A stretch of 64,000 bases of DNA from positions 584,788 through 648,787 of the forward strand of contig CP064989.1 of assembly GCA_016699875.1 (NCBI GenBank). Reading direction: 5' to 3'. The translations under genes and the position numbers were made by a program. Below, piece by piece: positions 1 to 28,273 of the stretch; within the stretch, counting starts at the first letter, position 1; each line of letters begins with the position of its first letter. Below the pieces are notes generated by a model. It made no database searches and was not told the origin of the DNA. It worked only from the letters and a program-made list of their open reading frames with translations. The stretch is from Candidatus Moraniibacteriota bacterium (GTDB taxonomy: Bacteria > Patescibacteriota > Minisyncoccia > Moranbacterales > UBA1568).

Positions 1-1378
1 ATACGCGATACTTTCCATCGCCGAAGATATCCTTGAAGTCTTTGAGTGGAAGCGACACCGTATACGCAAAGAGAAAGAGCCAGACAAATGAAGTCGGAAG
101 ACGAGCAATAGTCCCATCCGGAGAGAAAAGTAAAAATCCCAGAAAGAGGACTGTCAGACTCGCAACCGCGCTCACAAACGAGGCAAGTATCGGGAACCGC
201 TTGAGCCGAAAGGGCGGCGCAGAATAGACCCAAGCGATCACCTGATACAAAAGAAGTAGTAAGGCACTCTTCACACTAACCATGGCCAACAGAAAAATCG
301 ATGCCACAAAGAAGCTCACACCGATAAACCCGTAGAGCTCTCGCGATATATCGCCAGCAACTAATGGCCGGGAGCGATTGGTTCTCTGGTCTATTTCTTC
401 ATCAAAAAAGTCATTGACGACAACCGAAGCAAGCCATGCCAACACCACGCCGACAACCACCAAGAGAAGCGCGAGCGCATCGAAAAACCCAAGAGCTGTG
501 AACATAGCAGGCGAAGTCGCTAAAACCATCGAGAGACCGATACCCGTACAAAGAAGTCCGCTATGATACACCACTTGCGGCAGTCGAGCATTGCGAAAGA
601 GCGCGAGAAATATCTTCCTGTGCGATAGAAATAGCCAAAACCCGAAAACAACCGGGAAGAGTCCGCCATACAACAGGCTCATTTTTACATTCAATACCGA
701 CCGGGGATCCGTAATTGTGTGTGAGAAAAGCGAAAGTGGCGATAAAAAAATCGCCGCTACATCGGGAGAACGGAGCGCCCATTGTCCCCGAGCAATGCCA
801 TCAATGAGAATCGCCGCCCATGAAGGAAACGTACCGAGAAAGAAAAGGAGAGTGTACGCAGAAAGTGCTGAGAGGAGCGATCTCACAGCCCGACGCGTCT
901 TCCAGAGCACATACAGTCCAAAACCTACCGACACGAACGCGACTTCAACACGAACGCCATACGTAATTCCCATGTCCGGACGATCTCCGAAAAAAGTGAG
1001 GTATCGCTCAACAAGGCCGGAAAATCCATCGAAGATGTAAAAACTCCACAATCCCGTCCCGTCAGAAATAACAAAATCGATAATCGGCGGCGCAAGGATG
1101 ATCAGAAATCCGAAGAGGAGTATATTCGATGCCATTCGCAGAGAAATACGTGCAAAATACCGGACTATCGGGAGAAATAGAAGGAATGAGAGGAGAAAAA
1201 ACAGAACATTGTGTGTCCATTCAGAAAAAAGAAACCCGGCAGGAAGACTCTCAAAACCGAAAAGCCACGACTCTACCAAGAGTCGAAGGGTGATAAGACT
1301 GAAAAAAGCGGCCAGCCACAAGCCAAGATTCGTCTTGGATTCCTCAATCGCCAAAAGAAGCATTCTCAAGTATTTCAT
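1..1378 (-). CDS. UbiA-family prenyltransferase, partial (C-terminus beyond window start), with a ~290-aa N-terminal polytopic membrane extension
   Basis: Manual reverse-strand translation gives one uninterrupted hydrophobic ORF from ATG at 1378 down to position 1. It contains the UbiA motif 'NDFFDEEIDQRTNRSRPLVAGDIS' (NDxxDxxxD). It is missing from the ORF track because it runs off the window edge. The plus-strand ORFs 33..1430 are its basic, low-complexity antisense shadows. Confidence 0.55.
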   Translation of the reverse strand, partial: MKYLRMLLLAIEESKTNLGLWLAAFFSLITLRLLVESWLFGFESLPAGFLFSEWTHNVLFFLLSFLLFLPIVRYFARISLRMASNILLFGFLIILAPPIIDFVISDGTGLWSFYIFDGFSGLVERYLTFFGDRPDMGITYGVRVEVAFVSVGFGLYVLWKTRRAVRSLLSALSAYTLLFFLGTFPSWAAILIDGIARGQWALRSPDVAAIFLSPLSLFSHTITDPRSVLNVKMSLLYGGLFPVVFGFWLFLSHRKIFLALFRNARLPQVVYHSGLLCTGIGLSMVLATSPAMFTALGFFDALALLLVVVGVVLAWLASVVVNDFFDEEIDQRTNRSRPLVAGDISRELYGFIGVSFFVASIFLLAMVSVKSALLLLLYQVIAWVYSAPPFRLKRFPILASFVSAVASLTVLFLGFLLFSPDGTIARLPTSFVWLFLFAYTVSLPLKDFKDIFGDGKYRV

Positions 1379-1442
1379 ACGCGAAGCATACCAAACCGAA
1401 AGCCTCTCGCGCAATTTCCGGCAACCGTGATAGAGTGAATCC

Positions 1443-3680
1443 ATGACTTCACTCAACACCTCCCTCAACCCGGAACAGCGCCGCGCCGTCGAAACCACCG
1501 AAGGCCCGGTACTCATCGTCGCCGGAGCCGGAAGCGGAAAAACAAAAACACTTACCCATCGCACAGCTCATCTCATCCTGGAAAAAGGAGTGGGGGCGCA
1601 GCACATCCTTGCCGTTACCTTCACCAACAAAGCCGCCGAAGAAATGCGTGAACGCGTACGATCGTTGCTCTCGACAGCGAAACATTCATCATCAAGAGGA
1701 AGCGGAGATGAAACCGCTCATCACACTGGTTTGCCGCATATCGGCACGTTTCACAGTATCTGTTCGCGAATTCTCCGCAAGGAAATTTCCGCCCTCGGGT
1801 ATAAAAATACATTTACTATCCTCGACAGCGACGACCAACTCTCTCTCATGAAGCGCGTCATGAAAACGCTCGAGATCGACCCAAAGAATATCCATCCGCG
1901 CGCATTGCTCGATGCCATCTCCCGAGCAAAAAACCAACTTCTCGACGAGCTCACCTTCGAATCCCAGGCCGGAAGTTATTACGAGGAACTGGTCGCCAAA
2001 GCCTACCGGCGATATCAAGAAGAGCTCCGCGGCAACCATACGCTCGACTTCGACGATCTGGTACGCCTCACCATACATTTGTTCCACACGCATCCGGAGA
2101 CACTTGAACACTACCGACGCCTCTTCCGGTACATCATGGTGGACGAATATCAAGACACCAATCACTCGCAATACACGCTGATTCATCTCCTCGCTGAAAA
2201 ACATCGCAATCTCTTTGCAATTGGAGACGACTACCAATCCATATATGGCTGGCGTCAAGCGGATATCCGAAATATTCTCAATTTCGAAAAAGATTACCCC
2301 GAAGCCGCTATTATTACCCTCGATCAAAACTACCGCTCCACACAGACCATACTCGACGCTGCCGGAAGCATCATAGCCAAAAATCCCAACCAACGTCACA
2401 AAAAACTCTGGACATCTCAAAAGGGCGGCGACAATATCGTCCTTTTCGAAGCCGAAGACGAACGCAATGAAGCGGAGTATGTCATCCAAACCATACGGTC
2501 AATCATCAAAGGCACAAACAAGTCGGAACGTAGATTCTCGGAATGCGCTATCCTCTATCGAACCAACGCGCAATCACGCGCAATCGAAGAAGCATGCCTC
2601 AACCATTCCATTCCCTATCGCATCATCGGCGGACTCAAGTTCTATGGTAGAAAAGAAGTAAAAGACGCCATTGCCTACCTCCGACTCATCTCGAATCCCT
2701 GGGACACGATTTCACTCGCACGAATCGCCAATGAGCCGCCGCGCGGAATCGGCAAAAAAACACTCGAATCATGGCTAACATCAGCCAAAGAGTCGAAAAC
2801 AGACCCCGTAACGCTGGCACGAGAAAATGATGGGAAACAGCTCAGTATAGCCACTTCCAAACAAAAATCCGCCGCACAGCTTGCCAACATCCTGCACGAA
2901 AACACTCAAAAACTTCCTGAAAACAGCTCTCTCTCCGCATTTCTCAAAGAACTTCTCGAAAGTGTTGGATACATTGCATCGCTGGAAGACGGCACAGAAG
3001 AAGGGGCGGCTCGATTAGAAAATGTCCGAGAACTTTTCTCGGTCGCAAAAAAATACGACGGAACGCCTCTGGAAAGAGCTGTCTCATCTTTTCTGGAAGA
3101 AATAGCACTCGTCTCCGACACAGATGCCATTGACGGCAATGAAAACGCCGTCCAGCTCATGACCGTCCACAGCGCCAAGGGGCTTGAATTTCCCTTTGTA
3201 TTCCTCGTCGGACTCGAAGAGGGCATTTTTCCACACTCAAGAAGCGCCCTCTCGCCAGCCGAACTCGAGGAAGAGCGTCGCCTCATGTATGTGGGCCTCA
3301 CACGAGCCAAAGAAAAAGCGTGGCTCATATCCGCCGAAACCCGCATGATATTCGGCTCGACACAGATGAACGCTCCCTCACGATTCATTAGTGAAATCCC
3401 AGAAAATCTTATCGAAACGGAAGAGCGGGTCAAGGAATTTACAAGGAGCGCATATGGAAAGATGCCGATACCAACATCAAACACATCTCATCGAACGGAT
3501 TCCGAAAAACCCCGCAATAAAACAACACCTGAAACCCTCCGTCCGGGAGACTCCATCACGCACCCAACATTCGGCAATGGTATCGTCATAAAAATAGAAG
3601 GAACGCTTGCTACTATAGCTTTCCGCACCAAGGGTATCAAAAAACTCGCCCTCGGAATCGCGCCAATTGAAAAGATATAA
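1443..3680 (+). CDS. uvrD: UvrD/PcrA-type superfamily-1 DNA helicase
   Basis: 745 aa. Walker A 'AGAGSGKTKTLTHR', motif 'VTFTNKAAEEM', 'MVDEYQDTN', 'TVHSAKGLEFPFVFL', 'VGLTRAKE'. Typical UvrD/PcrA order and length. Confidence 0.9.
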   Translation: MTSLNTSLNPEQRRAVETTEGPVLIVAGAGSGKTKTLTHRTAHLILEKGVGAQHILAVTFTNKAAEEMRERVRSLLSTAKHSSSRGSGDETAHHTGLPHIGTFHSICSRILRKEISALGYKNTFTILDSDDQLSLMKRVMKTLEIDPKNIHPRALLDAISRAKNQLLDELTFESQAGSYYEELVAKAYRRYQEELRGNHTLDFDDLVRLTIHLFHTHPETLEHYRRLFRYIMVDEYQDTNHSQYTLIHLLAEKHRNLFAIGDDYQSIYGWRQADIRNILNFEKDYPEAAIITLDQNYRSTQTILDAAGSIIAKNPNQRHKKLWTSQKGGDNIVLFEAEDERNEAEYVIQTIRSIIKGTNKSERRFSECAILYRTNAQSRAIEEACLNHSIPYRIIGGLKFYGRKEVKDAIAYLRLISNPWDTISLARIANEPPRGIGKKTLESWLTSAKESKTDPVTLARENDGKQLSIATSKQKSAAQLANILHENTQKLPENSSLSAFLKELLESVGYIASLEDGTEEGAARLENVRELFSVAKKYDGTPLERAVSSFLEEIALVSDTDAIDGNENAVQLMTVHSAKGLEFPFVFLVGLEEGIFPHSRSALSPAELEEERRLMYVGLTRAKEKAWLISAETRMIFGSTQMNAPSRFISEIPENLIETEERVKEFTRSAYGKMPIPTSNTSHRTDSEKPRNKTTPETLRPGDSITHPTFGNGIVIKIEGTLATIAFRTKGIKKLALGIAPIEKI

Positions 3681-3694
3681 CTTGCAACGAGCAC

Positions 3695-4621
3695 TTACTT
3701 CGAAATTTCCCGCCCTTTTCCATGGAATTTCTCATGCACTTCACGAAGTCCCTCATCGGTAACGTGCGTATAAATTTGCGTCGTCGTAATGGACGAATGC
3801 CCAAGAAGCGCTTGGACACTTCGAATATCCGCTCCGTTCCGCAAAAGATCCGTGGCAAAACTGTGTCGTAACGTATGCGGGTGCACCTCTTTAGTAAGAC
3901 CCGCTTTAGCCGCGAGTCGTGCCACGATCCGCTCAACCGTACGAACCGTAATGCGCGAATCCTCGGCCGTATTCTTGGCAAATCCGTGTTTCGTGGAGAC
4001 GAAGAGTGCCGGGTCGGCATCCTTGCGAGCATCCAGATATATTTGCAGCGCTCGCCGAGCGCGGTCCGACACAAACACCATACGAAGCTTTCCACCCTTT
4101 CCGCGAACACTCAACTCTCCCGCATCGAGATTTACCATCTCGCGATCAAGTGAAACCAATTCCGAAACACGCAAACCCGAAGAAAACAAGAATTCCAAAA
4201 GAGCGCGATCTCGGCGCGCGGTTTCACTCATGCCGCTCGCCGCCAGACACATCCGCTCAAACTCCTCCAGCTCCAAAAAATCCACCTGGCGTTCCGGAAC
4301 CTTGGCCGTTTCCACACGTTCCGGAGGCGCTGAGACAACACCTTCCTTTGCCAGATACCGAAGAAATCCACGCAAAACAACAATATGGTAGTTTTGTGTT
4401 GTTTTTTTGAGTTCTCCGCCGTGGACATTTTGCCTCCGATTCAAAAACAACCGATATTTTCGTATACTGTCAAGCGTGATATCCTTTGGTTCTCGCACGC
4501 TTCTCCATGAAAAAAAACTCCTAAGTACGCGATCATAGCTTTCTATTGTTTTCGGCGACCGACCCCGCTCAATTTCCATATATTCGAGAAACTTTGTCAC
4601 CAAACTCGATACATCCGGCAT
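3695..4621 (-). CDS. xerC: Tyrosine site-specific recombinase, XerC/XerD-like
   Basis: 308 aa. N-terminal SAM-like core-binding domain; C-terminal catalytic 'HPHTLRHSFATDLLRNGADIRSVQALLGHSSITTTQIYTHV' (R..HxxR..Y). Convergent with uvrD. Confidence 0.85.
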   Translation of the reverse strand: MPDVSSLVTKFLEYMEIERGRSPKTIESYDRVLRSFFSWRSVREPKDITLDSIRKYRLFLNRRQNVHGGELKKTTQNYHIVVLRGFLRYLAKEGVVSAPPERVETAKVPERQVDFLELEEFERMCLAASGMSETARRDRALLEFLFSSGLRVSELVSLDREMVNLDAGELSVRGKGGKLRMVFVSDRARRALQIYLDARKDADPALFVSTKHGFAKNTAEDSRITVRTVERIVARLAAKAGLTKEVHPHTLRHSFATDLLRNGADIRSVQALLGHSSITTTQIYTHVTDEGLREVHEKFHGKGREISK

Positions 4622-4730
4622 ACGCGCATACTGAAGATAAATACACTAAACCCCTTCAGTATACCACAGAGGAAATAATTAAATTTTGGCTTAAATAAGC
4701 TAAACTAAAGAAAAATAATCCAAAAATCCA

Positions 4731-4759
4731 TTGACAAGAGATGCGCCTCTTACTATACT
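4731..4759 (+). promoter_or_regulatory. Sigma70-like promoter (TTGACA, 17-bp spacer, TATACT) upstream of the LysM-CHAP gene
   Basis: TTGACA at 4731-4736, 17-nt spacer, TATACT at 4754-4759. Consensus match seen directly. Confidence 0.5.
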
Positions 4760-4848
4760 CAACCTTGCGTAAAAATCTTCGGTTTCGGCTCTGATGGGGC
4801 GCTTCTTTTTACTAAGCACCCCTAGGATGCGGAAGCAATTGAAAGGAC

Positions 4849-6051
4849 TTGCGTATCTCTACGCGCATTTTCAGGGGGTTATTTCGTATTTTCCGTGAGG
4901 GGCAGGAACTGCTTCACAAAGGAAATACTCACATTCACCGATTGCAAAGAAAGGGTGTTGTTTATCTCAAACAACACAAGACCGTTCGGATTCTCCACCT
5001 ATTTCGCCAGTATTCCGCACTCACCGTCGTTGTGTCGAGTGCTTTTCTCGTTACCGGAACCAACATTGCGACTCATGAGCGCCCCGGAAGCGCCCTTTCC
5101 GGCTACTTTCACACTGGAGACAATCCGAATGACCAGCAATTTCCCATGAAAAGCCAGGTCAAACGGGAAAATCTCGGAACCGCCCCGCTCGCCTTCGCCT
5201 CAAGCACCGTCGATACGGAAGCGAAACTCGAGGACCCATCGGAAATCAATTCTCCCAGCAACACCATTGTCGCCTCCGCAGATCTTGCTCCGGTTATACA
5301 AGAAGACCCCGAAGAAGGCGACGGTGTGAAGATTTACACCGTGCAAGAGGGTGATACCCTCGGAAAAATTGCCCAAGACCACCACATTACCGTAAATACT
5401 ATTCTCTGGGCTAATGATATAGAGAATGTCGATGAAATCCGCCCGGGCGACCAAATATTCATCCTCCCCATCGCAGGACTGAAATACATTGTTAAAGAAG
5501 GCGATACCATACAAGATATCGCCAAGAAATACCATGGCGACACCGAGCGCATAATCGCATTCAATAACCTCCCAGCAAACGGCCGACTCGAAACCGATCA
5601 AGAACTTATCATTCCCGACGGTTACAAAGACACACCCAAACCATCTTCCGATAGCATTCTCGATCGCCGACAATACGCCACTTCGAGCGGCGGAACAGCC
5701 ACAGATATCTCCGGCTGGCGAACACTGACCGGAAAGGCTGGGACCGGACACACCTTCCCTTACGGCTATTGCACCTGGTATGTCGCTCAAAATCGCTATG
5801 TTCCCTGGGGTGGCAACGCAGGAACATGGCTTTATAACGCCAAAGCTCTTGGATACAAGACCGGAAAATCCCCGCGAGTCGGCTCAATTGTTGTCACCAC
5901 GGAAAACCGCTACTACGGACATGTTGCTCTGGTGGAAAAGGTGCTCGATGACGCCATTATTGTAAGTGAAATGAACTATGTCGGCTGGGGAAAAACCGAT
6001 CGCCGTACCCTTTCCACTGCCAACAGAAGTATTAAAGGATACATCTACTAA
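4849..6051 (+). CDS. Peptidoglycan hydrolase with two LysM domains and a C-terminal CHAP domain
   Basis: LysM repeats 'YTVQEGDTLGKIAQDHHITVNTILWAN' and 'YIVKEGDTIQDIAKKYHGDTERIIAFN'. CHAP Cys/His 'GYCTWYVAQ...YYGHVALV'. N-terminal TM segment. Start uncertain (4849 or an internal Met). Confidence 0.8.
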   Translation: MRISTRIFRGLFRIFREGQELLHKGNTHIHRLQRKGVVYLKQHKTVRILHLFRQYSALTVVVSSAFLVTGTNIATHERPGSALSGYFHTGDNPNDQQFPMKSQVKRENLGTAPLAFASSTVDTEAKLEDPSEINSPSNTIVASADLAPVIQEDPEEGDGVKIYTVQEGDTLGKIAQDHHITVNTILWANDIENVDEIRPGDQIFILPIAGLKYIVKEGDTIQDIAKKYHGDTERIIAFNNLPANGRLETDQELIIPDGYKDTPKPSSDSILDRRQYATSSGGTATDISGWRTLTGKAGTGHTFPYGYCTWYVAQNRYVPWGGNAGTWLYNAKALGYKTGKSPRVGSIVVTTENRYYGHVALVEKVLDDAIIVSEMNYVGWGKTDRRTLSTANRSIKGYIY

Positions 6052-6083
6052 TTATTAGTATCCGAAAAATATTCCCACAGCGA

Positions 6084-6116
6084 AAAGCAACTCATCTTTA
6101 AAGAGTTGCTTTTTAT
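6084..6116 (+). terminator. Rho-independent terminator after the LysM-CHAP gene
   Basis: Stem 'aaagcaactc'/'gagttgcttt' (10 bp) with 9-nt loop, then T-run. Confidence 0.55.
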
Positions 6117-6162
6117 TATCACTTTGAGAGAAAAATTGCTCAGTTTTTTACTCACAAGAAAC

Positions 6163-6230
6163 TGTCCACAAATCAACACTTGTCACCCAACAGCGTCAAA
6201 ACAAGAGAAACTGTTCACATCCTGTGCACA
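6163..6230. promoter_or_regulatory. Cluster of three TGTNCACA motifs (TGTCCACA 6163, TGTTCACA 6212, TGTGCACA 6223), putative operator or DnaA-box-like sites
   Basis: Motifs seen directly. The last two are 11 bp apart (one helical turn). They lie in the 570-bp AT-rich spacer upstream of the T4SS-like operon. Confidence 0.3.
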
Positions 6231-6561
6231 ACCCCATGTTTCCTGGTGAAAAACTACGGATATACCCTGTGAATTACCCAAGCAACAAAGTGAGCAATCA
6301 GGTTATTTCACCCAAATGAATTCCAAATCAACAGCAACACTTGAGAATTCCACGAAAGTATATGCCATTAAAAAGCCCCCAACAAACCCATTTAATCTGT
6401 TTCTCCACTTCTCCACAGTACTAATAGTAATAAAAATTAAATATATATATAAAATTCATTATTCATTAAGTAGGGGGAGATAGGGTGAACAAATCTTTCT
6501 TTGTGCTAACACAAGAGTACTGGCATTTTCGTATACGACGTATTTGCTTTACATCTTTATT

Positions 6562-6621: not shown

Positions 6622-8673
6622 GTGAGAAAAAGAGGTAAAACAAAAAAATCATTTTTGTTTAATGCGATTCTCTTTCTTCAGAGTCACCCTGCTCTGTTTT
6701 TCGCTCTGCTTGCAGGGTGTTTTTTGTTGGTTCCGAGCGGTCAATTTGCTCAAGCTGGCTGGTTTGAGAATTTGGCATCGCCAAGAGCGTGGATTAATGC
6801 TCTTGTGTATCCGTTTTTTCTGTTTTTTTCGTGGATTGTAAATTTGGCGGCGGGAATTTTTGTGTGGGTGATTAATGCGGAAACTTTTACCAAGCTCATG
6901 AATGCGGGAGCTATTTATGAGGTATGGCTTATTGTTCGTGATTTTCTTAATATTTTCTTTATATTGGTACTTCTTTTCTCTGCTTTTGCCACGATATTTC
7001 AGTTGGACAAATATGAATACAAGCGAACTATACCGATGCTGGTTATTATGGCTCTTTTGGTGAATTTCAGTTTTCCGGTGGCGCGATTTGTGATTGATTT
7101 GGCAAATGTGCCGATGTATTTCTTTTCGCAGAATATTTTTGGTGTTGATGGCCCCAATGAGATTACCTCGGGAATATTAAGTGGTGCCAAGATGCAGAAC
7201 ATTCTTATTCCGGGGGTTGATGATAAGTCCTTGAAGGACTTTGAGACAACACACCTTCTTGCAGCGACTATTTGTATGTTTTTGTTTGGCATCTCTTTCT
7301 TGGTATTGTCGGTGCTGATGTTGGTTCGAATGATTGCGCTTGCTATTTTGGTGATGTTTTCGCCAATTGGTTTTGTGGGAATGATTACCCCGGCGCTCCA
7401 GGGCTTTGCAAAGGGCTGGTGGGATAAATTGTTCAAATGGGCATTTTACGGACCGATTGCAGTGATGTTTGTATTGGTGTCGGTTATTGTCATGAAATCG
7501 GCAGGAGACTCTATATATCCCACTGCAGGTGCGGGTGGCGCCTTTCAGTCTACAGGAAGTTCGGTGAATGATAATATGATATCTGCTGTTGCTTTCTTTA
7601 CGATTCCAATTGTGCTTTTTTGGATCGCTATTACCTCCACAGAAAAATACAGCAATGATATATCCGGCTTGGGAATAAAATGGGGATCACAATTGGGGAG
7701 AAAGGCCGGGAATTTGGTTAGAAAGGGTGCGGTAGGGACGGTTTTATATATTCCAAGGCAATCAGGAATTGTTGGTGGCGTGGAGAATGCTTGGAAAAAT
7801 AGAAAGTCTTGGTGGCTTGGAGGTAGAGAATCAAAGGAGGCTCGGGAGAGGCGAGAAGCTGGGTGGGAAGGATTATTTGGAAGTGCCTCTCATCCTGTAG
7901 AAGGTGTACGAAAGGCTTTGGATGAAAATACACGAAAAAGGGTTCATGAACTTGCTGAAAAAAATAAAAAGGATAATCGTTCGTATGCTGATCTTCAAAG
8001 GGATCTTGAGTCTAAAGATGAAATCAAAAAACGAGCTGCAGCAATTACTATGGCGGACAAGGAGATGTTTGAAAGTGCTGAGGATTTTTCAAGAGCACTT
8101 GAAGCTGCTGGTGGTGATATTGACAGTATAACTAAGATTGTACGAAAAGCTCCTAAAGAAATGTTGCGGTCGGGAGATGACCTTGCAAAGGTGCTTGAAG
8201 CAGTAAATACTGCAACGTCAAAGATACCAGGAATGCGACCGGTTGCTCAGGCTCAAATAAAATCTCAACTTATTGATAAGGCGGGAAGTGGAGCTCTTCC
8301 ATCGGCGGATACTATTGGTGGTGCTCAGTATAGGAAGATTCTTAAATCTTTGGGGGGTGATTCAACTCTTGAAAAGACCTTGGAAGGGAAGATGAAAAAG
8401 GAAGGACGATTGAGGGCGGTTCTTGAGTATAGGTTGGGAGAAGCTGGTACGGATGCAACAAAGAGGCAAATGGCATACGAAACAACATTTGGGAAACTTG
8501 ATTCGGAAAATCTTGGGAAGCAAGGGGGATTAATTGGTGATTCTGGTTTCAGAGATTATTTCAAGGGGAGAATGAAGAGTGGAGAGTACAATGACGACTT
8601 TCTTGAGGGATACTTGCGATATACTGGTGGAGGAAATAGGAAATCTTTCGAGAGACATGTTACTTCCCCATAA
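6622..8673 (+). CDS. VirB6/TrbL-like polytopic membrane protein with a charged C-terminal soluble domain
   Basis: 683 aa, GTG start. About 8 TM helices in the first 330 aa, then a K/E-rich hydrophilic tail. Position is first in an operon with VirB3/VirB4-like genes. Confidence 0.45.
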   Translation: MRKRGKTKKSFLFNAILFLQSHPALFFALLAGCFLLVPSGQFAQAGWFENLASPRAWINALVYPFFLFFSWIVNLAAGIFVWVINAETFTKLMNAGAIYEVWLIVRDFLNIFFILVLLFSAFATIFQLDKYEYKRTIPMLVIMALLVNFSFPVARFVIDLANVPMYFFSQNIFGVDGPNEITSGILSGAKMQNILIPGVDDKSLKDFETTHLLAATICMFLFGISFLVLSVLMLVRMIALAILVMFSPIGFVGMITPALQGFAKGWWDKLFKWAFYGPIAVMFVLVSVIVMKSAGDSIYPTAGAGGAFQSTGSSVNDNMISAVAFFTIPIVLFWIAITSTEKYSNDISGLGIKWGSQLGRKAGNLVRKGAVGTVLYIPRQSGIVGGVENAWKNRKSWWLGGRESKEARERREAGWEGLFGSASHPVEGVRKALDENTRKRVHELAEKNKKDNRSYADLQRDLESKDEIKKRAAAITMADKEMFESAEDFSRALEAAGGDIDSITKIVRKAPKEMLRSGDDLAKVLEAVNTATSKIPGMRPVAQAQIKSQLIDKAGSGALPSADTIGGAQYRKILKSLGGDSTLEKTLEGKMKKEGRLRAVLEYRLGEAGTDATKRQMAYETTFGKLDSENLGKQGGLIGDSGFRDYFKGRMKSGEYNDDFLEGYLRYTGGGNRKSFERHVTSP

Positions 8674-8703: not shown

Positions 8704-9930
8704 ATGGATGACGCTGAAAATTCAAAAAAAAGAAGAGTATGTCGTCCCATGCTGACCAATATTGACTTCTTTGGAAAAGAGCTTTCCGAGAGTGAATTTA
8801 ATGGTTTGTGGGGAATTTTCGATACCCTCTCGGAGGAAGTAAAAGATATTTTGACGACGCCAGAAATGTCGCGAAGAATTGAGTTGCTTCAAAAAGAACG
8901 AGGCCTTTCGGACGAGCATATTGAAATTATCTCGGCGATTATCCGTGAATATTTTCTTCGGAATAAAGATGTAATCTGGCTTCAGGATGCTCTCACGCGC
9001 AGACTTGATCAGAAAGACGTGGTATTTGTGAAAGAGTATATTCAAAAGAATATTCTTACGATTAAGCCAGTTCCTAGGGTGCTGTCAGAAAATGATGGGT
9101 CTTCGGCGGTGCAAATTGTCCAACTTCCGCTTCTGGATGCATTGGCGAAGTATCAGCGGCTGTCGGAGCAAACAGTGACGGATGATCGTATCAGTGTGAA
9201 GGGGGAATCTGCGCCGGTTCGGGGGTCGATTCGGAATTGGTTGCGGCACTATCGTGATGCGGTGGGTATTCGAAAGCACTCGACAATGGAACGAGGGCAA
9301 TTTCTCTTTCAGGGAGAGAATACGAGGCGACTGTCTGCTCAGGATCGGGAAAAAGTATCTTTTCTTCTCAAGGCGCTCGATGAAAATACCCCAGTGCCAA
9401 TTGATAGCAATCGTCAAGAACTGATGTTTCCCGCGTTTCAAGATCGGGGAAGCGTCAGTACGCAACCGGTGACGGAGACTTCTGTTCCGGCGCTCGAGAC
9501 ATCATTTCGTCCATTGGAAAAGTTTCCAGCACAGGCGGCGCCTATTCAGAAGGCGCTTGAATGGAAATCGAAAGAGAAAAAAGAAAATATACCAAATCAA
9601 CCCCCTCAGCCCGGTGGAATATCCGCCCCGGTGTATGCTTCAGTCGCACCTTTTCAGTCAAAAGCTCCCGCTAAAGGGGGTATGAGTTTCAGCTCGAGCC
9701 ATGTGCTGCCGCATGAGAAGGAACAGGAAGCAACGAAGAGTCGACAGAATTCAATTTCACATGTGTCGGAGAGTTCTCGCGATCCGGAAGCAATTAGTGT
9801 CATTCGACCTCGCAGAAGTCTTCATGGTGCTCAGCGGGAGTCTGAATGGTCTCAGGGAAGTGGCTCTGACGCTTCTCGTGTGGTAAACTTACGGAGTTCG
9901 AGAGAGAAGAATATTCAAGGAAAGGTATAG
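8704..9930 (+). CDS. Hypothetical soluble protein (Ser/Pro-rich C-terminus) in the T4SS-like operon
   Basis: ORF 8686..9930; the ATG at 8704 ('MDDAENSKK') is the more likely start. No recognisable motif. Confidence 0.5.
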   Translation: MDDAENSKKRRVCRPMLTNIDFFGKELSESEFNGLWGIFDTLSEEVKDILTTPEMSRRIELLQKERGLSDEHIEIISAIIREYFLRNKDVIWLQDALTRRLDQKDVVFVKEYIQKNILTIKPVPRVLSENDGSSAVQIVQLPLLDALAKYQRLSEQTVTDDRISVKGESAPVRGSIRNWLRHYRDAVGIRKHSTMERGQFLFQGENTRRLSAQDREKVSFLLKALDENTPVPIDSNRQELMFPAFQDRGSVSTQPVTETSVPALETSFRPLEKFPAQAAPIQKALEWKSKEKKENIPNQPPQPGGISAPVYASVAPFQSKAPAKGGMSFSSSHVLPHEKEQEATKSRQNSISHVSESSRDPEAISVIRPRRSLHGAQRESEWSQGSGSDASRVVNLRSSREKNIQGKV

Positions 9931-9966
9931 TGTTTTCTTGGAGAATTACCGAGAAGTATCTTATAT

Positions 9967-10380
9967 GTGATTTGGATAGCGGCTTCTATGCTTTTTAATG
10001 TTCCGCAATTCATTGATGTTGAGGATAAAGTGGCGGGGCCGCTCACAGCAAAACAAATACTCTGGATGGTGGGAATGGGAGGGGTATTGTTTATTGTGTG
10101 GACATTCCTCGATACGACCACGTTCTTCGTGTTTTCTATTCCCGTCATCATTATTTTCGTATTGTTTGCTTTTTATCGTCCGTATAATCAGTCACTCCTC
10201 TTCTTTTCGGTGAATGCAGTCCTCTTCTTCTTTCGGCCGAAAGTGTATACATGGGATCGCCCGGGCGTGATGAAGAACGAAGTCTCGAAGCCAAAAGAGG
10301 AAAAAGCAACACGTGAGAGTCCAAGAGCTCTCTCGGTCGAAGAAATACGGAGCTTGGCAAAAGTGGTTGATAGGAAGTGA
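9967..10380 (+). CDS. Small two-TM membrane protein, VirB3-like by size, topology and position
   Basis: 137 aa with two hydrophobic helices ('LWMVGMGGVLFIVWTFL', 'FFVFSIPVIIIFVLFAFY'), immediately upstream of the VirB4 N-domain gene. Confidence 0.35.
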   Translation: MIWIAASMLFNVPQFIDVEDKVAGPLTAKQILWMVGMGGVLFIVWTFLDTTTFFVFSIPVIIIFVLFAFYRPYNQSLLFFSVNAVLFFFRPKVYTWDRPGVMKNEVSKPKEEKATRESPRALSVEEIRSLAKVVDRK

Positions 10381-10429
10381 TGGAGTCTATTTTTTCTGGG
10401 AAAGTGCCTTCTATAAAGTGGATGATCGT

Positions 10430-11131
10430 ATGGAAACATTGAGCGGCGCCAAAAAACCAGCAATGCAAGATTCGGCATCCAGTACTCAGCGCTATGTGGA
10501 TGTTGAGGAGGTGCGCGATGGTGTCATCGTACTCAAGAATGGCGCGCTTCGCTCGGTGCTTTTGGTTTCATCGCTCAATTTCGATCTCAAATCCGCCGAG
10601 GAACAAGATGCTATTATTTTGCAGTATCAGAATTTTCTCAACTCACTGGATTTTCCGGTTCAGATCGTCATCTCTTCTCGCCGGTTTGATATTCAACCGT
10701 ATATCGAAGTTTTGAAGGATAAAGAAAATCATCAGAGAAATGAGTTGTTGCGTATGCAGATTTCCGAGTACCAGAATTTTATTAAGAATCTTTCAGAAGT
10801 ATCAAATATCATGTCGAAGTTTTTCTACGTTGTTATTCCGTTCTCTCCGGTTGAAGACAAAGAAAAGGGATTGTTTCATAGTCTGACAACGCTCTTCAAT
10901 CCGGCTGGGGCAATTGCGGAGCGTCGTGAATACTTTGAAACCTACAAGAATCAACTGTGGCAACGTGTGGATCATGTGAGTTTCAGTTTGTCACAGACCG
11001 GGCTTAAGGTAGCGCCACTCAACACGGAAGAGTTGATAGAGCTCTTGTATAACTCCTACAATCCGTCGCTCTTTACGACTCGATTGACAAAAAATATCGA
11101 AGCGATTGACCTGGCGGTTGAGAAAGCATAG
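10430..11131 (+). CDS. VirB4/TrbE/CagE N-terminal domain protein (either a separate gene or the N-terminal fragment of a disrupted VirB4)
   Basis: 'VEEVRDGVIVLKNGALRSVLLVSSLNFDLKSAEEQDAIILQYQNFLNSLDFPVQIVISSRRFD' matches the conserved N-terminal region of conjugative VirB4 ATPases. Same reading frame as the downstream ATPase ORF. The track start at 10313 overlaps the upstream gene, so ATG 10430 is preferred. Confidence 0.5.
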   Translation: METLSGAKKPAMQDSASSTQRYVDVEEVRDGVIVLKNGALRSVLLVSSLNFDLKSAEEQDAIILQYQNFLNSLDFPVQIVISSRRFDIQPYIEVLKDKENHQRNELLRMQISEYQNFIKNLSEVSNIMSKFFYVVIPFSPVEDKEKGLFHSLTTLFNPAGAIAERREYFETYKNQLWQRVDHVSFSLSQTGLKVAPLNTEELIELLYNSYNPSLFTTRLTKNIEAIDLAVEKA

Positions 11132-11200
11132 TGAGTGCCGTTTTTTGTGGGCAATACCCATTTATTTTCAAAGAAAGTCATTTTCAGAATTTGAAATCGA

Positions 11201-13039
11201 ATGTTTATGCGCGTCCCTTTTTTGTCTTCTTCCGGAGGTGAACAGGATGAAATCCTCGCGAGCGAGGTGCTTTACCAGCGAGGAGTAGCTCGTATTCGTG
11301 ATCTCATTGCTCCATCTGCCATTAAGGTAACAGCGAATTCTCTTCAGTCTGGCGAAACATTGGTGCGAACGCACTTTATCATTGCGTATCCACGCTATCT
11401 CAACACGAACTGGTTCTCACCGGTGGTGAATCTCGATTTTCCCATGGATACGGCGATGTTTGTACACCCGATTGATACGCGTGACATCTTGAGGAATCTC
11501 TTGAAATCGGCAACGCGGGTGGAATCTTCGATTCAAATAGAATCCGAAGCTGGCAAGGTACGAAGTCCGGTACTTGAGACGGCACTTCATGATATTGAAG
11601 AATTGCGCGATCGACTTCAGCAGGGGACAGAAAAGTTCTTTCGTTTCAGTATCTATATTTCGCTCTATGCGCAGTCGATTGAGGAGCTCAATCGCATGGG
11701 CCGATCCATTGAGGCGATGCTTGAGTCTCAATTGGTCTATATAAAGCCGTCCGTTTTGCGGATGCAACAGGGATTCACGTCGACGCGTCCGATCGGGACG
11801 GACACGCTCGATGTGGCAAATAATTTGAATACGGCGCCGCTTTCGACGACATTTCCATTTGTATCCGCCGATCTTTCGTCGAACGACGGCATTCTATACG
11901 GTATTAACCGGCACAATAACAGCCTGATTCTTTTTGATCGGTTCAAGCTCGAGAATGCGAATATGGTGATATTTGCAAAGTCGGGTGCCGGGAAAAGCTA
12001 TTTCATGAAGCTGGAGATATTGCGTTCCATGATGTTTGACACAAGCGTTATTGTGATTGATCCGGAGAATGAATACAAGCATTTGGCAGAGACTGTGAAT
12101 GGCTCATTTATTCACATGAGTCTCAATTCCGCTTTCCATATCAATCCATTTGATTTGCCGAAACAGCGCGACGAGCAAGAAGATTTCGAAGGGCTCTTGC
12201 GAAGCAATATTGCTACGCTGATCGGATTGCTGCACCTCATGCTGGGGAGTGTCACGGCGGAGGAGGACTCTATTCTTGACCAAGCCCTCCGCGAAACGTA
12301 CGCGGTGCGCGATATTACCGGGAAAACAGACCTTGCGACACTGACACCGTCCTCATTCCCTACCATGAGCGACCTGTATGAGGTTTTGAGAAATATGGAG
12401 GGGACTGAGTCACTCTCCGCTCGTCTTGAAAAATATACTCAAGGGATTTTCTCGGGATTTTTGAATCATGCGAGCAATATCACCATGCAGAACCAGTTTG
12501 TTGTGTTTAATATACGTGATTTGGAAGAAGAGCTGCGTCCGATAGCCATGTATCTTATCTTGCACTATATCTGGAATGAGATGCGGTCGGAGTTGAAGCG
12601 GCGACTGGTTGTGGTGGATGAGGCATGGATTATGATGCAGAACGACGATGCGGCGAGCTTTCTTTTTGGCATTGCGAAGCGTGCTCGGAAGTATTATTGC
12701 GGATTAACAACGATTACTCAGGATATCAGTGACTTCATGGGGTCGAAATATGGAAAGCCAATCGTGACCAATTCATCGCTCCAGCTCTTACTGCGGCAGT
12801 CTCCCGCATCGATCGATGTGGTGACAGAGACCTTCTATCTCACGGATCACGAAAAGTTCTTGCTATTGGAGAGTGCTGTTGGTGAGGGAATATTCTTTGC
12901 CGGTTCGAAGCATGTGGCTATTAAGGTGGTGGCATCATATAGCGAAGATCAGATTATCACATCGAATCCGGAGCAGCTCGCTGAGATAGAGGCAGCAAAA
13001 CGGGAATTTGACGAGCATGGCGGCTGGAGCGAGAGGTAA
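11201..13039 (+). CDS. virB4: VirB4-family conjugation/secretion ATPase (C-terminal ATPase portion)
   Basis: 612 aa. Walker A 'IFAKSGAGKSYFMK', Walker B 'RLVVVDEAWIMM', 'RKYYCGLTTITQD'. Central VirB4 region 'RTHFIIAYPRYLNTNWFSPVVNLDFP'. Confidence 0.8.
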   Translation: MFMRVPFLSSSGGEQDEILASEVLYQRGVARIRDLIAPSAIKVTANSLQSGETLVRTHFIIAYPRYLNTNWFSPVVNLDFPMDTAMFVHPIDTRDILRNLLKSATRVESSIQIESEAGKVRSPVLETALHDIEELRDRLQQGTEKFFRFSIYISLYAQSIEELNRMGRSIEAMLESQLVYIKPSVLRMQQGFTSTRPIGTDTLDVANNLNTAPLSTTFPFVSADLSSNDGILYGINRHNNSLILFDRFKLENANMVIFAKSGAGKSYFMKLEILRSMMFDTSVIVIDPENEYKHLAETVNGSFIHMSLNSAFHINPFDLPKQRDEQEDFEGLLRSNIATLIGLLHLMLGSVTAEEDSILDQALRETYAVRDITGKTDLATLTPSSFPTMSDLYEVLRNMEGTESLSARLEKYTQGIFSGFLNHASNITMQNQFVVFNIRDLEEELRPIAMYLILHYIWNEMRSELKRRLVVVDEAWIMMQNDDAASFLFGIAKRARKYYCGLTTITQDISDFMGSKYGKPIVTNSSLQLLLRQSPASIDVVTETFYLTDHEKFLLLESAVGEGIFFAGSKHVAIKVVASYSEDQIITSNPEQLAEIEAAKREFDEHGGWSER

Positions 13040-17259: not shown

Positions 17260-17328
17260 AAAAGGAGATCGGGAATAATAAGAGTGCGGAAGCTTCTTAT
17301 CTCGTACGCGCTTGGGGTTGCCATTGAA

Positions 17329-18591
17329 ATGAAACTTTGTATGAATTCTTTGAAGAGAATTGGGGAAATAAGGATTTTTTTATTTGTATGCATGTCTATT
17401 TTTTTGTTTTCTCATAAAGTGGCATTTTCAGCCAATCCTGCAACACGAGCTGAATGTCTTGTGTATGTTTCAAAAACAGCTCAGTGTAAAAGTACTTGTG
17501 ATGGTCTCCAGCAAATAGGAACGTGTAGCGATGACACTTCGGGGAATACTCTATGTTGCGATAAAATATATCAGGAAACAGCCGTGGACGATGTTTCTTG
17601 TCATGCTCAGGGGGGGGTCTGCGTGAGGGATAGCGGTGCCCTTGGTGGAGGATGTAGTGTAAATGGTGAAGTTATAGGGGTGAAAGTTGGTAAGTGCGAC
17701 AATATAGTCGGTACTGGTGCGGCTACAAGCTGCTGCACCGATCCTAAAAACTCACAGGGGACAAATAATTCTTCTTCGGTTTCTTCTACTTCTTCTGGCT
17801 CTACCTCTCTCAACTATACGCCGCTTGAGAATTTGCCTGGGTTTGAGGGGCAGAGCGGGGACTTCGCGACGTATTTCGGGAATCTCTACAAGCTGGCACT
17901 GTGGATTGTGGCGATATCGGCGCTCTTTATGCTCGTTGTGGGCGGGTTTCTCTATCTCTCGAGTGCGGGGAATACGGCACTTCTTGGCACGGCGAAGAAA
18001 ACAATCTACTCCGCACTGATCGGACTGGTGATTGCGCTTATTTCGTGGCTTCTTCTTGATACGATAAACAGCGATTTGACGAATTTGAAACTGACGGGAT
18101 TGACCGGAGCGATAGGAACAAACAGTAGTACAAGTAGCACGTCAACAGCTTCTCCAACAAGTGGCTCCGCGGCCGAGGTTTTGAGTGAAGCGTATAAGAT
18201 GGTCAACAACACATCGTGTTATTATAGCCAAGCTATCCCTCGGAATGGTTGCCAGGGCAGCCCGCCTCATACAGACTGCTCGGACTTTGTTGTTTCTGCA
18301 TACAAGCGAGCCGGATGTTCGGTTCCTCCCGACGGCACTTCAAATATGAAGGCCGTTGCTGAGGATATTGGCGATAAAAGCAGTTTAAAATCCGGCGATG
18401 CTATCGTTTACAATAACGGATCGCATGGACATGTGGTGCTATGTGAAAATGATGGTTGTAGCACATATACGGCTGCTGCCTCAACGAAGAGTGGTCTTGT
18501 GAAAGGTCGAGATTCCGCTCATGTGTTTTCTGATGGAGCTTCTGCTGGAGGTTTGAAGGTTCTTCGGGTAAGCAAATACTGCAAAAGCTAG
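17329..18591 (+). CDS. Cys-rich secreted domain + two-helix pilin-like (VirB2/TrbC-like) membrane hairpin + C-terminal NlpC/P60-type cell-wall hydrolase
   Basis: Signal peptide. 13 Cys in the N-terminal 130 aa. Hydrophobic hairpin 'LYKLALWIVAISALFMLVVGGFLYLSSAGN...KKTIYSALIGLVIALISWLLLD'. NlpC/P60 catalytic 'DCSDFVVSAYKRAG' and 'GSHGHVVLCEN'. Confidence 0.55.
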   Translation: MKLCMNSLKRIGEIRIFLFVCMSIFLFSHKVAFSANPATRAECLVYVSKTAQCKSTCDGLQQIGTCSDDTSGNTLCCDKIYQETAVDDVSCHAQGGVCVRDSGALGGGCSVNGEVIGVKVGKCDNIVGTGAATSCCTDPKNSQGTNNSSSVSSTSSGSTSLNYTPLENLPGFEGQSGDFATYFGNLYKLALWIVAISALFMLVVGGFLYLSSAGNTALLGTAKKTIYSALIGLVIALISWLLLDTINSDLTNLKLTGLTGAIGTNSSTSSTSTASPTSGSAAEVLSEAYKMVNNTSCYYSQAIPRNGCQGSPPHTDCSDFVVSAYKRAGCSVPPDGTSNMKAVAEDIGDKSSLKSGDAIVYNNGSHGHVVLCENDGCSTYTAAASTKSGLVKGRDSAHVFSDGASAGGLKVLRVSKYCKS

Positions 18592-26118: not shown

Positions 26119-26274
26119 GGAAAGGAGTCAATGAATGTCAAGCGACAAAGTTCAAGAGGAAATCAGAAAAGATGATCTTCTCTGCAATCCGCGTTATCCG
26201 AGTAAAGCCAATGAATATCGAGAATAGTGAAATCAGAGAGAAGTCGGGTGAGCGGCATGGAAACCACCGGATAT

Positions 26275-26763
26275 TTAGAGAGCATCTCCAATATCTTCTT
26301 TTGGCTTGATGATGACTTTTCGGTGTTCGCCGGTACCGGAGCTTTCGGTAGTGACAGTCAAGGAGTCAGCGAGTGCCATATGGACACACTTTCGTTCAAA
26401 AGGAGTCATGGGGCGGAGAGAAGCCGGCGTTTTCTCTGTTGCTACTCTCGATTCGATTTCTTTTGCTTCGGTAAAGAGCGCTTCAGCTTTCTCTTTCCAA
26501 TAGGAGTTGACATCCAATGAAAAATTTGCCCAACCATCAAGCTTTTTTCGCGCCGATGCGCGCACGATGGTTTGCAGTGCTTCAAGGTTCAATCCGCGCT
26601 GACCGATGAGAAGATTCGATCCTTCAGCGGTGGAAATCTGACAAACAAACTCTCCCTGCAGGAGAAATGTCGGTGTTTCGATGGCAATCGATGCCGGCAG
26701 AGTCATCTTGGCGAGTATTTCGCTTACGAGGGATCGGACGGTTTCGGCTCTTTGGGTATCCAT
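26275..26763 (-). CDS. jag: KhpB/Jag RNA-binding protein (KH + R3H)
   Basis: KH 'EGSNLLIGQRGLNLEALQTIV'; R3H 'MTPFERKCVHMAL...GTGEHRKVII'. Classic position downstream of yidC. Confidence 0.75.
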   Translation of the reverse strand: MDTQRAETVRSLVSEILAKMTLPASIAIETPTFLLQGEFVCQISTAEGSNLLIGQRGLNLEALQTIVRASARKKLDGWANFSLDVNSYWKEKAEALFTEAKEIESRVATEKTPASLRPMTPFERKCVHMALADSLTVTTESSGTGEHRKVIIKPKEDIGDAL

Positions 26764-26901
26764 AGAAATCTTCTCATGTGGTTATGAATCGCAGAGCGAC
26801 TCTTCCCTCCTTGTATAGAGAAGATACCATTGTTGAGCCACGATGAAAAGAGCTGAGAACCGGATGCTATCCAGAGAATTTCGAAGAACTGTAAGGGATT
26901 A

Positions 26902-27687: not shown

Positions 27688-27906
27688 GAAAATATAGTAT
27701 GAAAAGGGAATGATTATCGCTCAATAAGCTTTTGTATCGAGGTGATCTTTGGTGAGATTGCTGTCAAATAACATCATTTCGTCCGAATCGGATGACCCTG
27801 CCGTTTCGTATGCGATGAATAATCTCGTACGTTTTTCTGGTTTTTCATTCTCTCACTGTACCACAACTTTGGAAATTATAGACCGTGAGGAATCCGCCGT
27901 TTCTCA

Positions 27907-28263: not shown

Positions 28264-28273
28264 AGTACGCTGT

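What the first reader, a model, noticed from the sequence alone, without database searches (positions are those of the whole stretch)
10430..13039. VirB4 homolog split into an N-domain ORF and an ATPase ORF in the same reading frame by three in-frame stops
ORF 10430..11131 (VirB4 N-terminal region) and ORF 11201..13039 (rest of VirB4, including Walker A and B) are in the same frame (both positions are 2 mod 3).

They are separated by TAG (11129-11131), TGA (11132-11134) and TGA (11192-11194).

Together they would make a normal VirB4 of about 850 aa. This could be a recent pseudogenisation, a sequencing artefact, a real two-subunit VirB4, or a stop-codon readthrough/recoding site. TGA clearly acts as a stop elsewhere (dnaA ends in TGA), so recoding of TGA genome-wide is unlikely.
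Basis: seen in the sequence. Interest (0 to 1): 0.55.

Follow-up and report, generated by a model that had tools for sequence, protein, structure and literature searches.

The report
Normal two-gene VirB4 (TrsD-like + ATPase)
The "split VirB4" is real, but it is the normal, conserved and already published two-gene layout of the type IV secretion system in Patescibacteria (a TrsD-like N-terminal protein followed by a shorter VirB4 ATPase), and the shared reading frame is a coincidence.

Summary
ORF 10430..11131 (233 aa) and ORF 11201..13039 (612 aa) are in one frame, separated by TAG, TGA and TGA. ORF1 matches only the N-terminal part of VirB4 models and the TrsD/TraD family. ORF2 matches the rest of VirB4, including Walker A and B.

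It is not a pseudogene, an artefact or a recoding site. In 78 of 78 related Candidatus Moraniibacteriota loci that contain both genes, the N-terminal ORF ends in a stop (TAA 43, TGA 19, TAG 16) and the ATPase ORF follows. The relative frame is 26/27/25, which is uniform. Spacers run from -32 to +228 nt and are not conserved. Both ORFs are under very strong purifying selection (dN/dS about 0.01 against the closest relative). The junction has no RNA structure and no Rfam match.

None of the 270 listed ORF1 homologues is a full-length VirB4. The same order, VirB3-like, ~230-aa protein, ~610-670-aa ATPase, occurs in S. aureus pGO1 (trsC-trsD-trsE), with the ATPases beginning at equivalent positions, and in Firmicute plasmids. 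A haloarchaeal plasmid carries the same split with longer proteins.

Quinonero-Coronel et al. 2025 (PMC12102498) already report TrsD, a remote homologue of the VirB4 N-terminus, as the most abundant T4SS component in Patescibacteria, usually next to virB4.

Verdict: already known, low interest.

The parts
9967..10380 (+). PrgI-family (VirB3-like) small membrane protein, directly upstream of the N-terminal ORF
   Evidence: Pfam PF12666 PrgI, E 1.4e-8, 35.6 bits against a cutoff of 27. The same position is occupied by trsC in pGO1 and by a PrgI-family gene in C. perfringens pJFP838A.
10430..11131 (+). ORF1, 233 aa: stand-alone TrsD-like protein homologous to the N-terminal ~200 residues of VirB4; ends in TAG followed immediately by TGA
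   Evidence: NCBIfam matches: VirB4_plasma positions 92-282/894 (E 1.5e-11), TrsD/TraD 21-161/201 (E 4.9e-7), CD1110 7-116/752. 5121 homologues; the best 120 are 186-276 aa. The best 150 cluster representatives are 104-443 aa. The AF2 model (pLDDT 61) has TrwK/VirB4 chains of R388 as its top 14 PDB fold matches. dN 0.030 and dS 3.2 against L001.
11132..11206 (.). Non-coding spacer (69-75 nt depending on the ORF2 start), A+T-rich, carrying the two extra in-frame TGA codons; no conserved signal
   Evidence: Spacers in the close relatives L001-L004 and L006 are 29-228 nt and unrelated in sequence. The RNA fold z-score is +1.27, less stable than shuffles. No Rfam match at E <= 1. There is one weak terminator-like hairpin at 11147-11161, with terminator-like counts only modestly above shuffles (4 found against a mean of 1.4, sd 1.1).
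11207..13039 (+). ORF2: VirB4-family ATPase lacking the first ~180 residues of fused VirB4s (610 aa from ATG 11207, 612 aa from ATG 11201); Walker A SGAGKS, Walker B VVVDEAW; ends in TAA
   Evidence: NCBIfam conju_CD1110 positions 185-734/752, 348.7 bits against a cutoff of 325. Pfam P-loop_TraG 95.8 bits. PDB 4ag5 VirB4 C-terminal domain, E 2.3e-48. It aligns with pGO1 TrsE from residue 34 to TrsE residue 36. dN 0.015 and dS 1.9 against L001; codon-position identity 97/99/54%.
6622..8673 (+). Large membrane protein, candidate VirB6-like channel component of the same locus (weak assignment)
   Evidence: NCBIfam CD3337/EF1877 mobilome membrane protein, E 7.7e-5, 21.6 bits, below the cutoff of 120. 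The equivalent position in the Pontibacillus locus holds a 779-aa hypothetical protein.
17284..18591 (+). T4SS pilin-like segment fused to an NlpC/P60 cell-wall hydrolase domain, downstream part of the locus
   Evidence: Pfam T4SS_pilin, E 4.2e-6 (27.2 bits against a cutoff of 26.6), and NLPC_P60, E 7.9e-6.

Best explanation
These are two intact, separately translated genes of the chromosomal type IV secretion system of a Candidatus Moraniibacteriota (Patescibacteria/CPR) bacterium. One is a TrsD-like protein that corresponds to the N-terminal ~200 residues of a conventional VirB4. The other is a VirB4 ATPase that starts where that module ends. The division is ancient and is shared with the pGO1/pSK41 trsD-trsE pair, with Firmicute plasmids and with a haloarchaeal plasmid. 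The shared frame and the extra stops in the spacer of this genome are accidents. What is shown: the separateness, the conservation, the purifying selection and the collinearity with fused VirB4s. What is inferred (about 0.6): the ORF1 protein works in trans as the detached N-terminal module of VirB4. It would bind the ATPase subunit and the adjacent PrgI/VirB3-like membrane protein and so dock the ATPase at the membrane channel, as the VirB4 N-terminal domain does in the R388 structure. Short or overlapping spacers in many orthologues suggest co-translation from one operon.
For: The split is present in 78 of 78 orthologous loci, with relative frames 26/27/25 and N-ORF stops TAA 43, TGA 19, TAG 16. 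Spacers run from -32 to +228 nt, many are 12 nt or shorter or are ATGA overlaps, and they are not conserved in sequence. dN/dS is about 0.01 for both ORFs against L001, with third-position identity of 54% against 97-99% at positions 1 and 2. None of the 270 listed ORF1 homologues is a full-length VirB4. ORF1 and ORF2 cover consecutive parts of fused VirB4 models: VirB4_plasma 92-282 then 293-893, and CD1110 7-116 then 185-734. pGO1 and pSK41 carry trsC-trsD(227 aa)-trsE(672 aa) in the same order, and ORF2 and TrsE begin at equivalent positions. Pontibacillus and C. perfringens plasmids have a stand-alone ORF1 homologue directly followed by a 621-641-aa VirB4/DUF87 ATPase; Haloglomus has a 541-aa protein with the ORF1-like domain at its N-terminus followed by a 781-aa DUF87 protein. 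The fold matches of the ORF1 model are TrwK/VirB4. Literature: PMC12102498 reports TrsD as a remote homologue of the VirB4 N-terminus, the most abundant T4SS component in Patescibacteria (2,272 homologues, 1,664 next to virB4), essential in Ca. Southlakia epibionticum ML1, with the T4SS often near dnaA. Here dnaA lies at 28582-30141.
Against: No data here show that the two proteins interact physically. The ORF1 structure model is only moderately confident (pLDDT 61), and its fold matches have E about 3e-3, with none at or below 1e-3. ORF1 scores far below the curated cutoff of the NCBIfam TrsD/TraD model (29.8 against 200 bits). A direct profile comparison with pGO1 TrsD is weak (E 0.012, probability 3.5%), so orthology with TrsD, as opposed to shared descent from a VirB4 N-terminal module, is not established. 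The 69-75 nt spacer in this genome is longer than in most orthologues, so tight translational coupling is not evident here.
Confidence: 0.9

Rival explanations
1. Recent pseudogenisation: a formerly continuous virB4 was interrupted by nonsense mutations in this lineage.
For: The two ORFs are in the same frame and only about 23 codons apart, with three stops. Fused VirB4s collinear with ORF1 plus ORF2 exist in other phyla (model coordinates).
Against: All 78 related loci are split, down to 58% ORF1 identity, and two thirds of them have the genes in different frames. Both ORFs have dN/dS of about 0.01. The spacer has no similarity to VirB4 sequence and is not conserved even among close relatives. 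The listed ORF1 homologues are stand-alone proteins.
Confidence: 0.01
2. Assembly or sequencing artefact: the stops are base-calling or assembly errors in a continuous gene.
For: None beyond the shared frame. Reads are not available.
Against: Three independent stops would be required. Independent assemblies from many studies show the same two-gene structure with different spacers and frames. The ORF1 C-terminus and the ORF2 N-terminus (MRV...) coincide with those of orthologues.
Confidence: 0.01
3. Programmed stop-codon readthrough or recoding that produces a fused VirB4 in addition to, or instead of, the two proteins.
For: The genes share a frame here and in 26 of 78 orthologous loci, and in some of those a single stop and 3-36 nt separate the genes.
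Against: The frame distribution is uniform (p = 0.96), so the in-frame arrangement is not under selection. The commonest N-ORF stop is TAA (43 of 78). Here three stops, two of them adjacent, would have to be read through. The junction has no stable RNA structure (z +1.27) and no Rfam match. The spacer sequence is not conserved. TGA, TAG and TAA all terminate genes whose lengths match their families in this window, which is consistent with the standard code.
Confidence: 0.02
4. Two real genes, but ORF1 (TrsD-like) has diverged to a role of its own, for example a regulator or assembly factor, and does not act as a detachable VirB4 N-terminal module bound to the ATPase.
For: [quoted passage not shown] Many homologues carry extra C-terminal sequence, with lengths of 300-540 aa. 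No interaction was tested here.
Against: The gene stays strictly adjacent to, and in the same order as, the VirB3-like gene and the ATPase across Moraniibacteriota and Firmicute plasmids, with the same ORF1-homologue-then-ATPase order in a haloarchaeal plasmid. Its coverage of VirB4 models is exactly complementary to that of ORF2. The model has a VirB4-like fold. Conservation is extreme and parallels that of the ATPase.
Confidence: 0.15

Closest known systems
Patescibacteria chromosomal T4SS with a TrsD homologue next to virB4 (Quinonero-Coronel et al. 2025, PMC12102498; genetics in Ca. Southlakia epibionticum ML1 by Wang et al. 2023, as cited there)
   Same: The phylum is the same: the related loci are Candidatus Moraniibacteriota / Patescibacteria. 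The component set matches: PrgI/VirB3-like, TrsD-like, VirB4, VirB6-like, a pilin-like protein and a cell-wall hydrolase. No relaxase was seen in the locus ORFs scanned. The locus is close to dnaA and dnaN, about 15-20 kb away.
   Different: Nothing substantive. The paper's CONJScan TrsD profile could not be run here. The NCBIfam TrsD model matches at E 4.9e-7, below its curated cutoff.
trsC-trsD-trsE of Staphylococcus aureus conjugative plasmids pGO1/pSK41 (MPF_FATA, pGO1 subclass); traD-traE of pIP501 by recollection only
   Same: The gene order is the same: VirB3-like, ~230-aa protein, ~610-670-aa VirB4-type ATPase. The ATPases align from residue 34 of ORF2 to residue 36 of TrsE, so the breakpoint is the same.
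   Different: Sequence similarity of ORF1 to TrsD itself is marginal (hhalign E 0.012). ORF1 scores better against the N-terminus of fused mycoplasma ICE VirB4 (E 1.5e-11). The pGO1 system is a plasmid conjugation apparatus with a relaxase and a coupling protein, whereas this one is chromosomal.
Fused VirB4 ATPases (CD1110 family of Clostridioides CTn2, Mbov_0397 family of mycoplasma ICEs, TrwK of R388)
   Same: ORF1 plus ORF2 are collinear with these single polypeptides. The ATPase domain is homologous. The ORF1 model resembles TrwK chains.
   Different: In those systems the N-terminal module and the ATPase form one chain of 750-900 aa. Here they are two genes.

Membership tests
VirB4-family T4SS ATPase (ORF2) | Score above the curated cutoff of a VirB4 family model | tested here: met
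   NF045971 conju_CD1110 scores 348.7 bits against a cutoff of 325. PF19044 P-loop_TraG scores 95.8 bits against 25.8.
VirB4-family T4SS ATPase (ORF2) | Walker A and Walker B motifs in the C-terminal domain | tested here: met
   SGAGKS and VVVDEAW are in the ORF2 translation. The domain aligns with the 4ag5 VirB4 C-terminal domain at E 2.3e-48.
VirB4-family T4SS ATPase (ORF2) | N-terminal ~200-residue module in the same polypeptide | tested here: not met
   ORF2 starts at model position 185 of 752 (CD1110) and 293 of 894 (VirB4_plasma). The missing part is encoded by ORF1.
VirB4-family T4SS ATPase (ORF2) | Encoded among other T4SS genes (VirB3-like, VirB6-like, hydrolase) | tested here: met
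   PrgI at 9967-10380, a weak CD3337/EF1877-like match at 6622-8673, and T4SS_pilin plus NlpC/P60 at 17284-18591.
TrsD/TraD family (NCBIfam NF041427) (ORF1) | Score above the curated family cutoff (200 bits) | tested here: not met
   29.8 bits, E 4.9e-7, model positions 21-161/201. hhalign against pGO1 TrsD gives E 0.012. ORF1 is a distant relative, not a member at NCBI's threshold.
TrsD/TraD family (NCBIfam NF041427) (ORF1) | ~200-230-aa protein encoded between the VirB3-like gene and the VirB4-type ATPase gene | tested here: met
   In the window: PrgI 9967-10380, ORF1 10430-11131, ATPase 11207-13039. In pGO1: trsC 25492-25899, trsD 25886-26569, trsE 26584-28602.
TrsD/TraD family (NCBIfam NF041427) (ORF1) | Remote homology to the N-terminal part of VirB4 | tested here: met
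   VirB4_plasma 92-282 (E 1.5e-11), CD1110 7-116 (E 1.3e-5) and TIGR00929 18-124 (E 2.6e-3). The top 14 PDB fold matches are TrwK/VirB4 (the model is of moderate confidence).
Patescibacteria T4SS 'TrsD homologue' as defined in PMC12102498 | Detected with the CONJScan MPF_FATA TrsD profile and encoded near a virB4 of the Patescibacteria clade | not testable with these tools
   The CONJScan profiles and the paper's VirB4 tree are not available here. Adjacency to virB4 and Patescibacteria origin are met.
Pseudogene / disrupted gene | Interrupted relative to intact orthologues, with relaxed selection | tested here: not met
   78 of 78 orthologous loci are split. dN/dS is about 0.01 for both parts.
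Programmed readthrough / recoding site | Conserved in-frame arrangement, a leaky stop context and a stimulatory RNA element | tested here: not met
   Relative frames are 26/27/25 and TAA is the commonest stop. The fold z-score is +1.27. There is no Rfam match and the spacer is not conserved.

The most novel reading that the evidence does not exclude
The breakpoint between the TrsD-like protein and the ATPase appears to be the same in Patescibacteria and staphylococcal pGO1, and the same two-gene division is found in Firmicute plasmids and a haloarchaeal plasmid. That would mean either a single very old fission, or that the two-gene form is ancestral and 'canonical' VirB4 arose by fusion. The detached module would then be a separately regulated, possibly exchangeable, adaptor between the ATPase and the VirB3-like membrane subunit in an essential, non-conjugative T4SS. 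None of this was tested here beyond the shared breakpoint with pGO1 and the synteny.
Probability: 0.3. Interest if true: 0.4.

Novelty: already known. Interest (0 to 1): 0.12.

Why it matters
It matters mainly for annotation. Pipelines and readers should not flag this pair as a frameshifted or pseudogenised virB4, nor merge the two genes. ORF1-type proteins are mostly labelled 'hypothetical protein' in public records, although they are the N-terminal module of the one ubiquitous T4SS ATPase. The T4SS of Patescibacteria is reported as essential for epibiotic growth (PMC12102498, PMC12857230), so how a two-piece VirB4 assembles is a fair mechanistic question. The existence of the split is not new.

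Tried and rejected
1. Pfam scans of ORF1 at E <= 0.01 and at E <= 10 gave nothing relevant. The precomputed label PF26593.2 carried by all listed homologues is not in the local Pfam copy, so I could not check its name.

2. Sequence searches of ORF1 and of its 50-sequence profile against PDB chains gave no meaningful match. Only the fold comparison pointed to VirB4.

3. The AF2 model of ORF1 from a shallow alignment (identities 62-91%) reached only pLDDT 61. I used it as supporting evidence only.

4. Profile comparison with pGO1 TrsD was marginal, so I do not claim orthology with TrsD.

5. A Shine-Dalgarno check was uninformative. Most genes in the window lack a clear motif, although many starts in that scan were mechanical first-start calls.

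6. dS is saturated for all relatives except L001 (and ORF1 against L004), so dN/dS could be estimated for few pairs.

7. The promoter and terminator scan of 9900-11400 gave promoter-like counts close to shuffles and terminator-like counts modestly above them (4 against 1.4). The hairpin at 11147-11161 has 5 pairs and is weak.

8. I did not predict a complex of ORF1 and ORF2. The structure tool takes single chains, and only window or database sequences.
Full report
**Observation**

The sequence is as described. ORF1 ends ...GAGAAAGCA TAG TGA at 11129-11134. A further TGA lies in the same frame at 11192-11194. ORF2 opens at ATG 11201, with a second ATG at 11207. A single-frame translation of 10313-13039 reads '...AVEKA**VPFFVGNTHLFSKKVIFRI*NRMFMRVPF...'. 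The mechanical ORF list gives 10313..11131 and 11201..13039. Walker A (SGAGKS) and Walker B (VVVDEAW) are in ORF2.

**What the two ORFs are**

- **ORF2** passes the curated cutoff of the CD1110-type VirB4 model (348.7 against 325 bits), but only over model positions 185-734 of 752. It also matches Pfam P-loop_TraG, AAA_10 and DUF87, and the crystallised VirB4 C-terminal domain 4ag5 at E 2.3e-48.
- **ORF1** has no match in the local Pfam copy. It does match the N-terminal part of three VirB4 models: VirB4_plasma 92-282/894 at E 1.5e-11, CD1110 7-116/752, and TIGR00929 18-124/792. It also matches the TrsD/TraD family model at positions 21-161/201, E 4.9e-7.
- Together the two ORFs tile a fused VirB4 without overlap: VirB4_plasma 92-282 and then 293-893.
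- An AF2 model of ORF1 is of moderate quality (pLDDT 61). Its 14 best PDB fold matches are all TrwK/VirB4 chains of the R388 T4SS (E about 3e-3, probability 0.85-1.00). I treat this as supporting evidence, not as decisive.

**Is the split a lesion or the normal state?**

- ORF1 has 5121 database homologues. The best 120 (63-91% identity) are all 186-276 aa.
- An exhaustive search of 1.84 billion cluster representatives found 2453 relatives. The best 150 are 104-443 aa. None of these 270 listed proteins is a full-length VirB4.
- A scan of GTDB genomes returned 80 loci. Those with an informative title are labelled Candidatus Moraniibacteriota, Moranbacteria, Paceibacteria/Pacebacteria, Parcubacteria or Patescibacteria. 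Many others carry an evidently wrong 'Bdellovibrionales' title.
- In all 78 loci that hold both genes, the N-terminal ORF ends in a stop and the ATPase ORF follows.
- The relative reading frame of the two genes is 26 same, 27 at +1 and 25 at +2 (chi-square p = 0.96). The terminating codon is TAA in 43, TGA in 19 and TAG in 16.
- Spacers range from a 32-nt overlap to 228 nt. Many are 12 nt or shorter or are ATGA overlaps.
- Among the relatives examined at 80-97% identity (L001-L004 and L006), the spacers are unrelated in sequence and are 29-228 nt long.
- L001, at 97% amino-acid identity, has the genes in different frames.
- So the shared frame in this window is the expected one-in-three coincidence. 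The two extra TGA codons are simply what an A+T-rich non-coding spacer contains.

**Selection**

Against L001, ORF1 has dN 0.030 and dS 3.2, and ORF2 has dN 0.015 and dS 1.9. For ORF2, identity by codon position is 97%, 99% and 54%. Both genes are under very strong purifying selection, which is incompatible with a pseudogene.

**Recoding**

The junction RNA folds less stably than shuffled controls (z = +1.27). It has no Rfam match. It carries only a weak 5-bp hairpin. With the uniform frame distribution and the predominance of TAA, I reject readthrough or recoding. Genes of this window that end in TGA, TAG or TAA have the lengths expected for their families, which is consistent with the standard code.

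**Gene starts**

M1 and E2 of ORF1 are nearly invariant in a 50-sequence alignment, which supports the start at 10430. Close orthologues of ORF2 all begin ATG-CGY-GTY (MRV). The ATG at 11207 is therefore the likelier start. Shine-Dalgarno motifs are absent upstream of most genes in this window, though many starts in that scan were mechanical first-start calls, so their absence here says nothing.

**Wider distribution**

- A tblastn search of ORF1 against plasmids found 48 records from Bacillota and haloarchaea, among others.
- In Pontibacillus, a 274-aa hypothetical protein overlaps a 621-aa gene annotated 'VirB4-like conjugal transfer ATPase, CD1110 family'.
- In C. perfringens pJFP838A the order is a PrgI-family gene, a 312-aa hypothetical protein and a 641-aa DUF87 protein.
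- In Haloglomus, a 541-aa protein with the ORF1-like domain at its N-terminus precedes a 781-aa DUF87 protein.
- In S. aureus pGO1 and pSK41 the order is trsC, trsD (227 aa, annotated as TrsD/TraD family) and a 672-aa DUF87 protein, TrsE.
- ORF2 aligns with TrsE over 589 columns, starting at residue 34 against residue 36 (E 1e-42). The ATPase subunits therefore begin at the same place.
- The direct similarity of ORF1 to pGO1 TrsD is marginal (hhalign E 0.012). I call ORF1 'TrsD-like' and do not file it as a member of the NCBIfam family, whose cutoff it fails.

**Literature**

Quinonero-Coronel et al. 2025 (PMC12102498) state the following:
- It was the most abundant T4SS component they retrieved in Patescibacteria: 2,272 homologues in 2,221 assemblies, 1,664 of them associated with virB4.
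- The homologue in Ca. Southlakia epibionticum ML1 is listed as essential.
- The T4SS is often near dnaA and dnaN.

In this window dnaA is at 28582-30141 and dnaN at 32215-33420, about 15-20 kb from the pair. A 2025 review (PMC12857230) also covers the Patescibacteria T4SS. The arrangement is therefore already described.

**Mechanism**

Shown here: two separate, conserved and co-located genes that together equal one VirB4.

Inferred from the R388 cryo-EM work (7O41 and 8RTB entries as listed; the role of the VirB4 N-terminal domain in binding VirB3 is from my own knowledge and from the statement in PMC12102498 that VirB3 anchors VirB4 to the membrane): the ORF1 protein acts in trans as the N-terminal module and links the ATPase to the PrgI/VirB3-like protein encoded immediately upstream. 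I put this at about 0.6. The main alternative is that the TrsD-like protein has a diverged role of its own.

**Verdict**

The split is real, but it is ordinary for this phylum and already published. The same-frame coincidence has no significance. Interest is low.

Noticed in passing
window 60613-63651 (- strand): A 1011-aa ORF with two separate T2SSE (PilB/PilT-type secretion ATPase) stretches, 730.8 bits in total, plus an MshEN domain. It looks like a tandem or fused type II/IV-pilus ATPase, roughly twice the usual length.
   Followed up: no
loci L067, L043, L071, L065, L029 and others: In some Moraniibacteriota orthologues the VirB4 ATPase ORF is 750-900 aa, against 606-620 aa here. The homology to ORF2 ends at about residue 605, so these carry long C-terminal extensions of unknown nature.
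   Followed up: no
window 11207-13039 against L001 1307-3136: The proteins are 97-98% identical, yet third codon positions are only 54% identical (dS about 1.9-3.2), and 7 kb of the locus is 77% identical in DNA. The T4SS proteins are unusually constrained relative to the divergence of the genomes. GC3 also differs (0.55 against 0.63).
   Followed up: partly
window 1-6500: GC skew changes sign near 6 kb, and AT skew is strongly positive in 1-6 kb. This suggests a replication origin-type switch just upstream of the T4SS locus, while dnaA lies 22 kb further on at 28582-30141. Only 6 kb lies to the left of the switch, so this is weak.
   Followed up: no
loci L001, L004-L008 and many others: Many public MAG records that carry this Moraniibacteriota-type locus are titled 'uncultured Bdellovibrionales bacterium' (also 'Micavibrio' and 'Pseudobdellovibrionaceae').
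   Followed up: no
window 17284-18591 (+): A single 435-aa ORF combines a T4SS pilin-like segment (residues 196-260) with an NlpC/P60 hydrolase domain (residues 326-386). A separate LysM-LysM-CHAP hydrolase lies at 4849-6051.
   Followed up: no
ORF1 homologues P0001-P0120: All listed homologues carry a precomputed Pfam label PF26593.2. That family is absent from the local Pfam copy, which finds nothing for ORF1. I could not verify the family's name or definition.
   Followed up: partly
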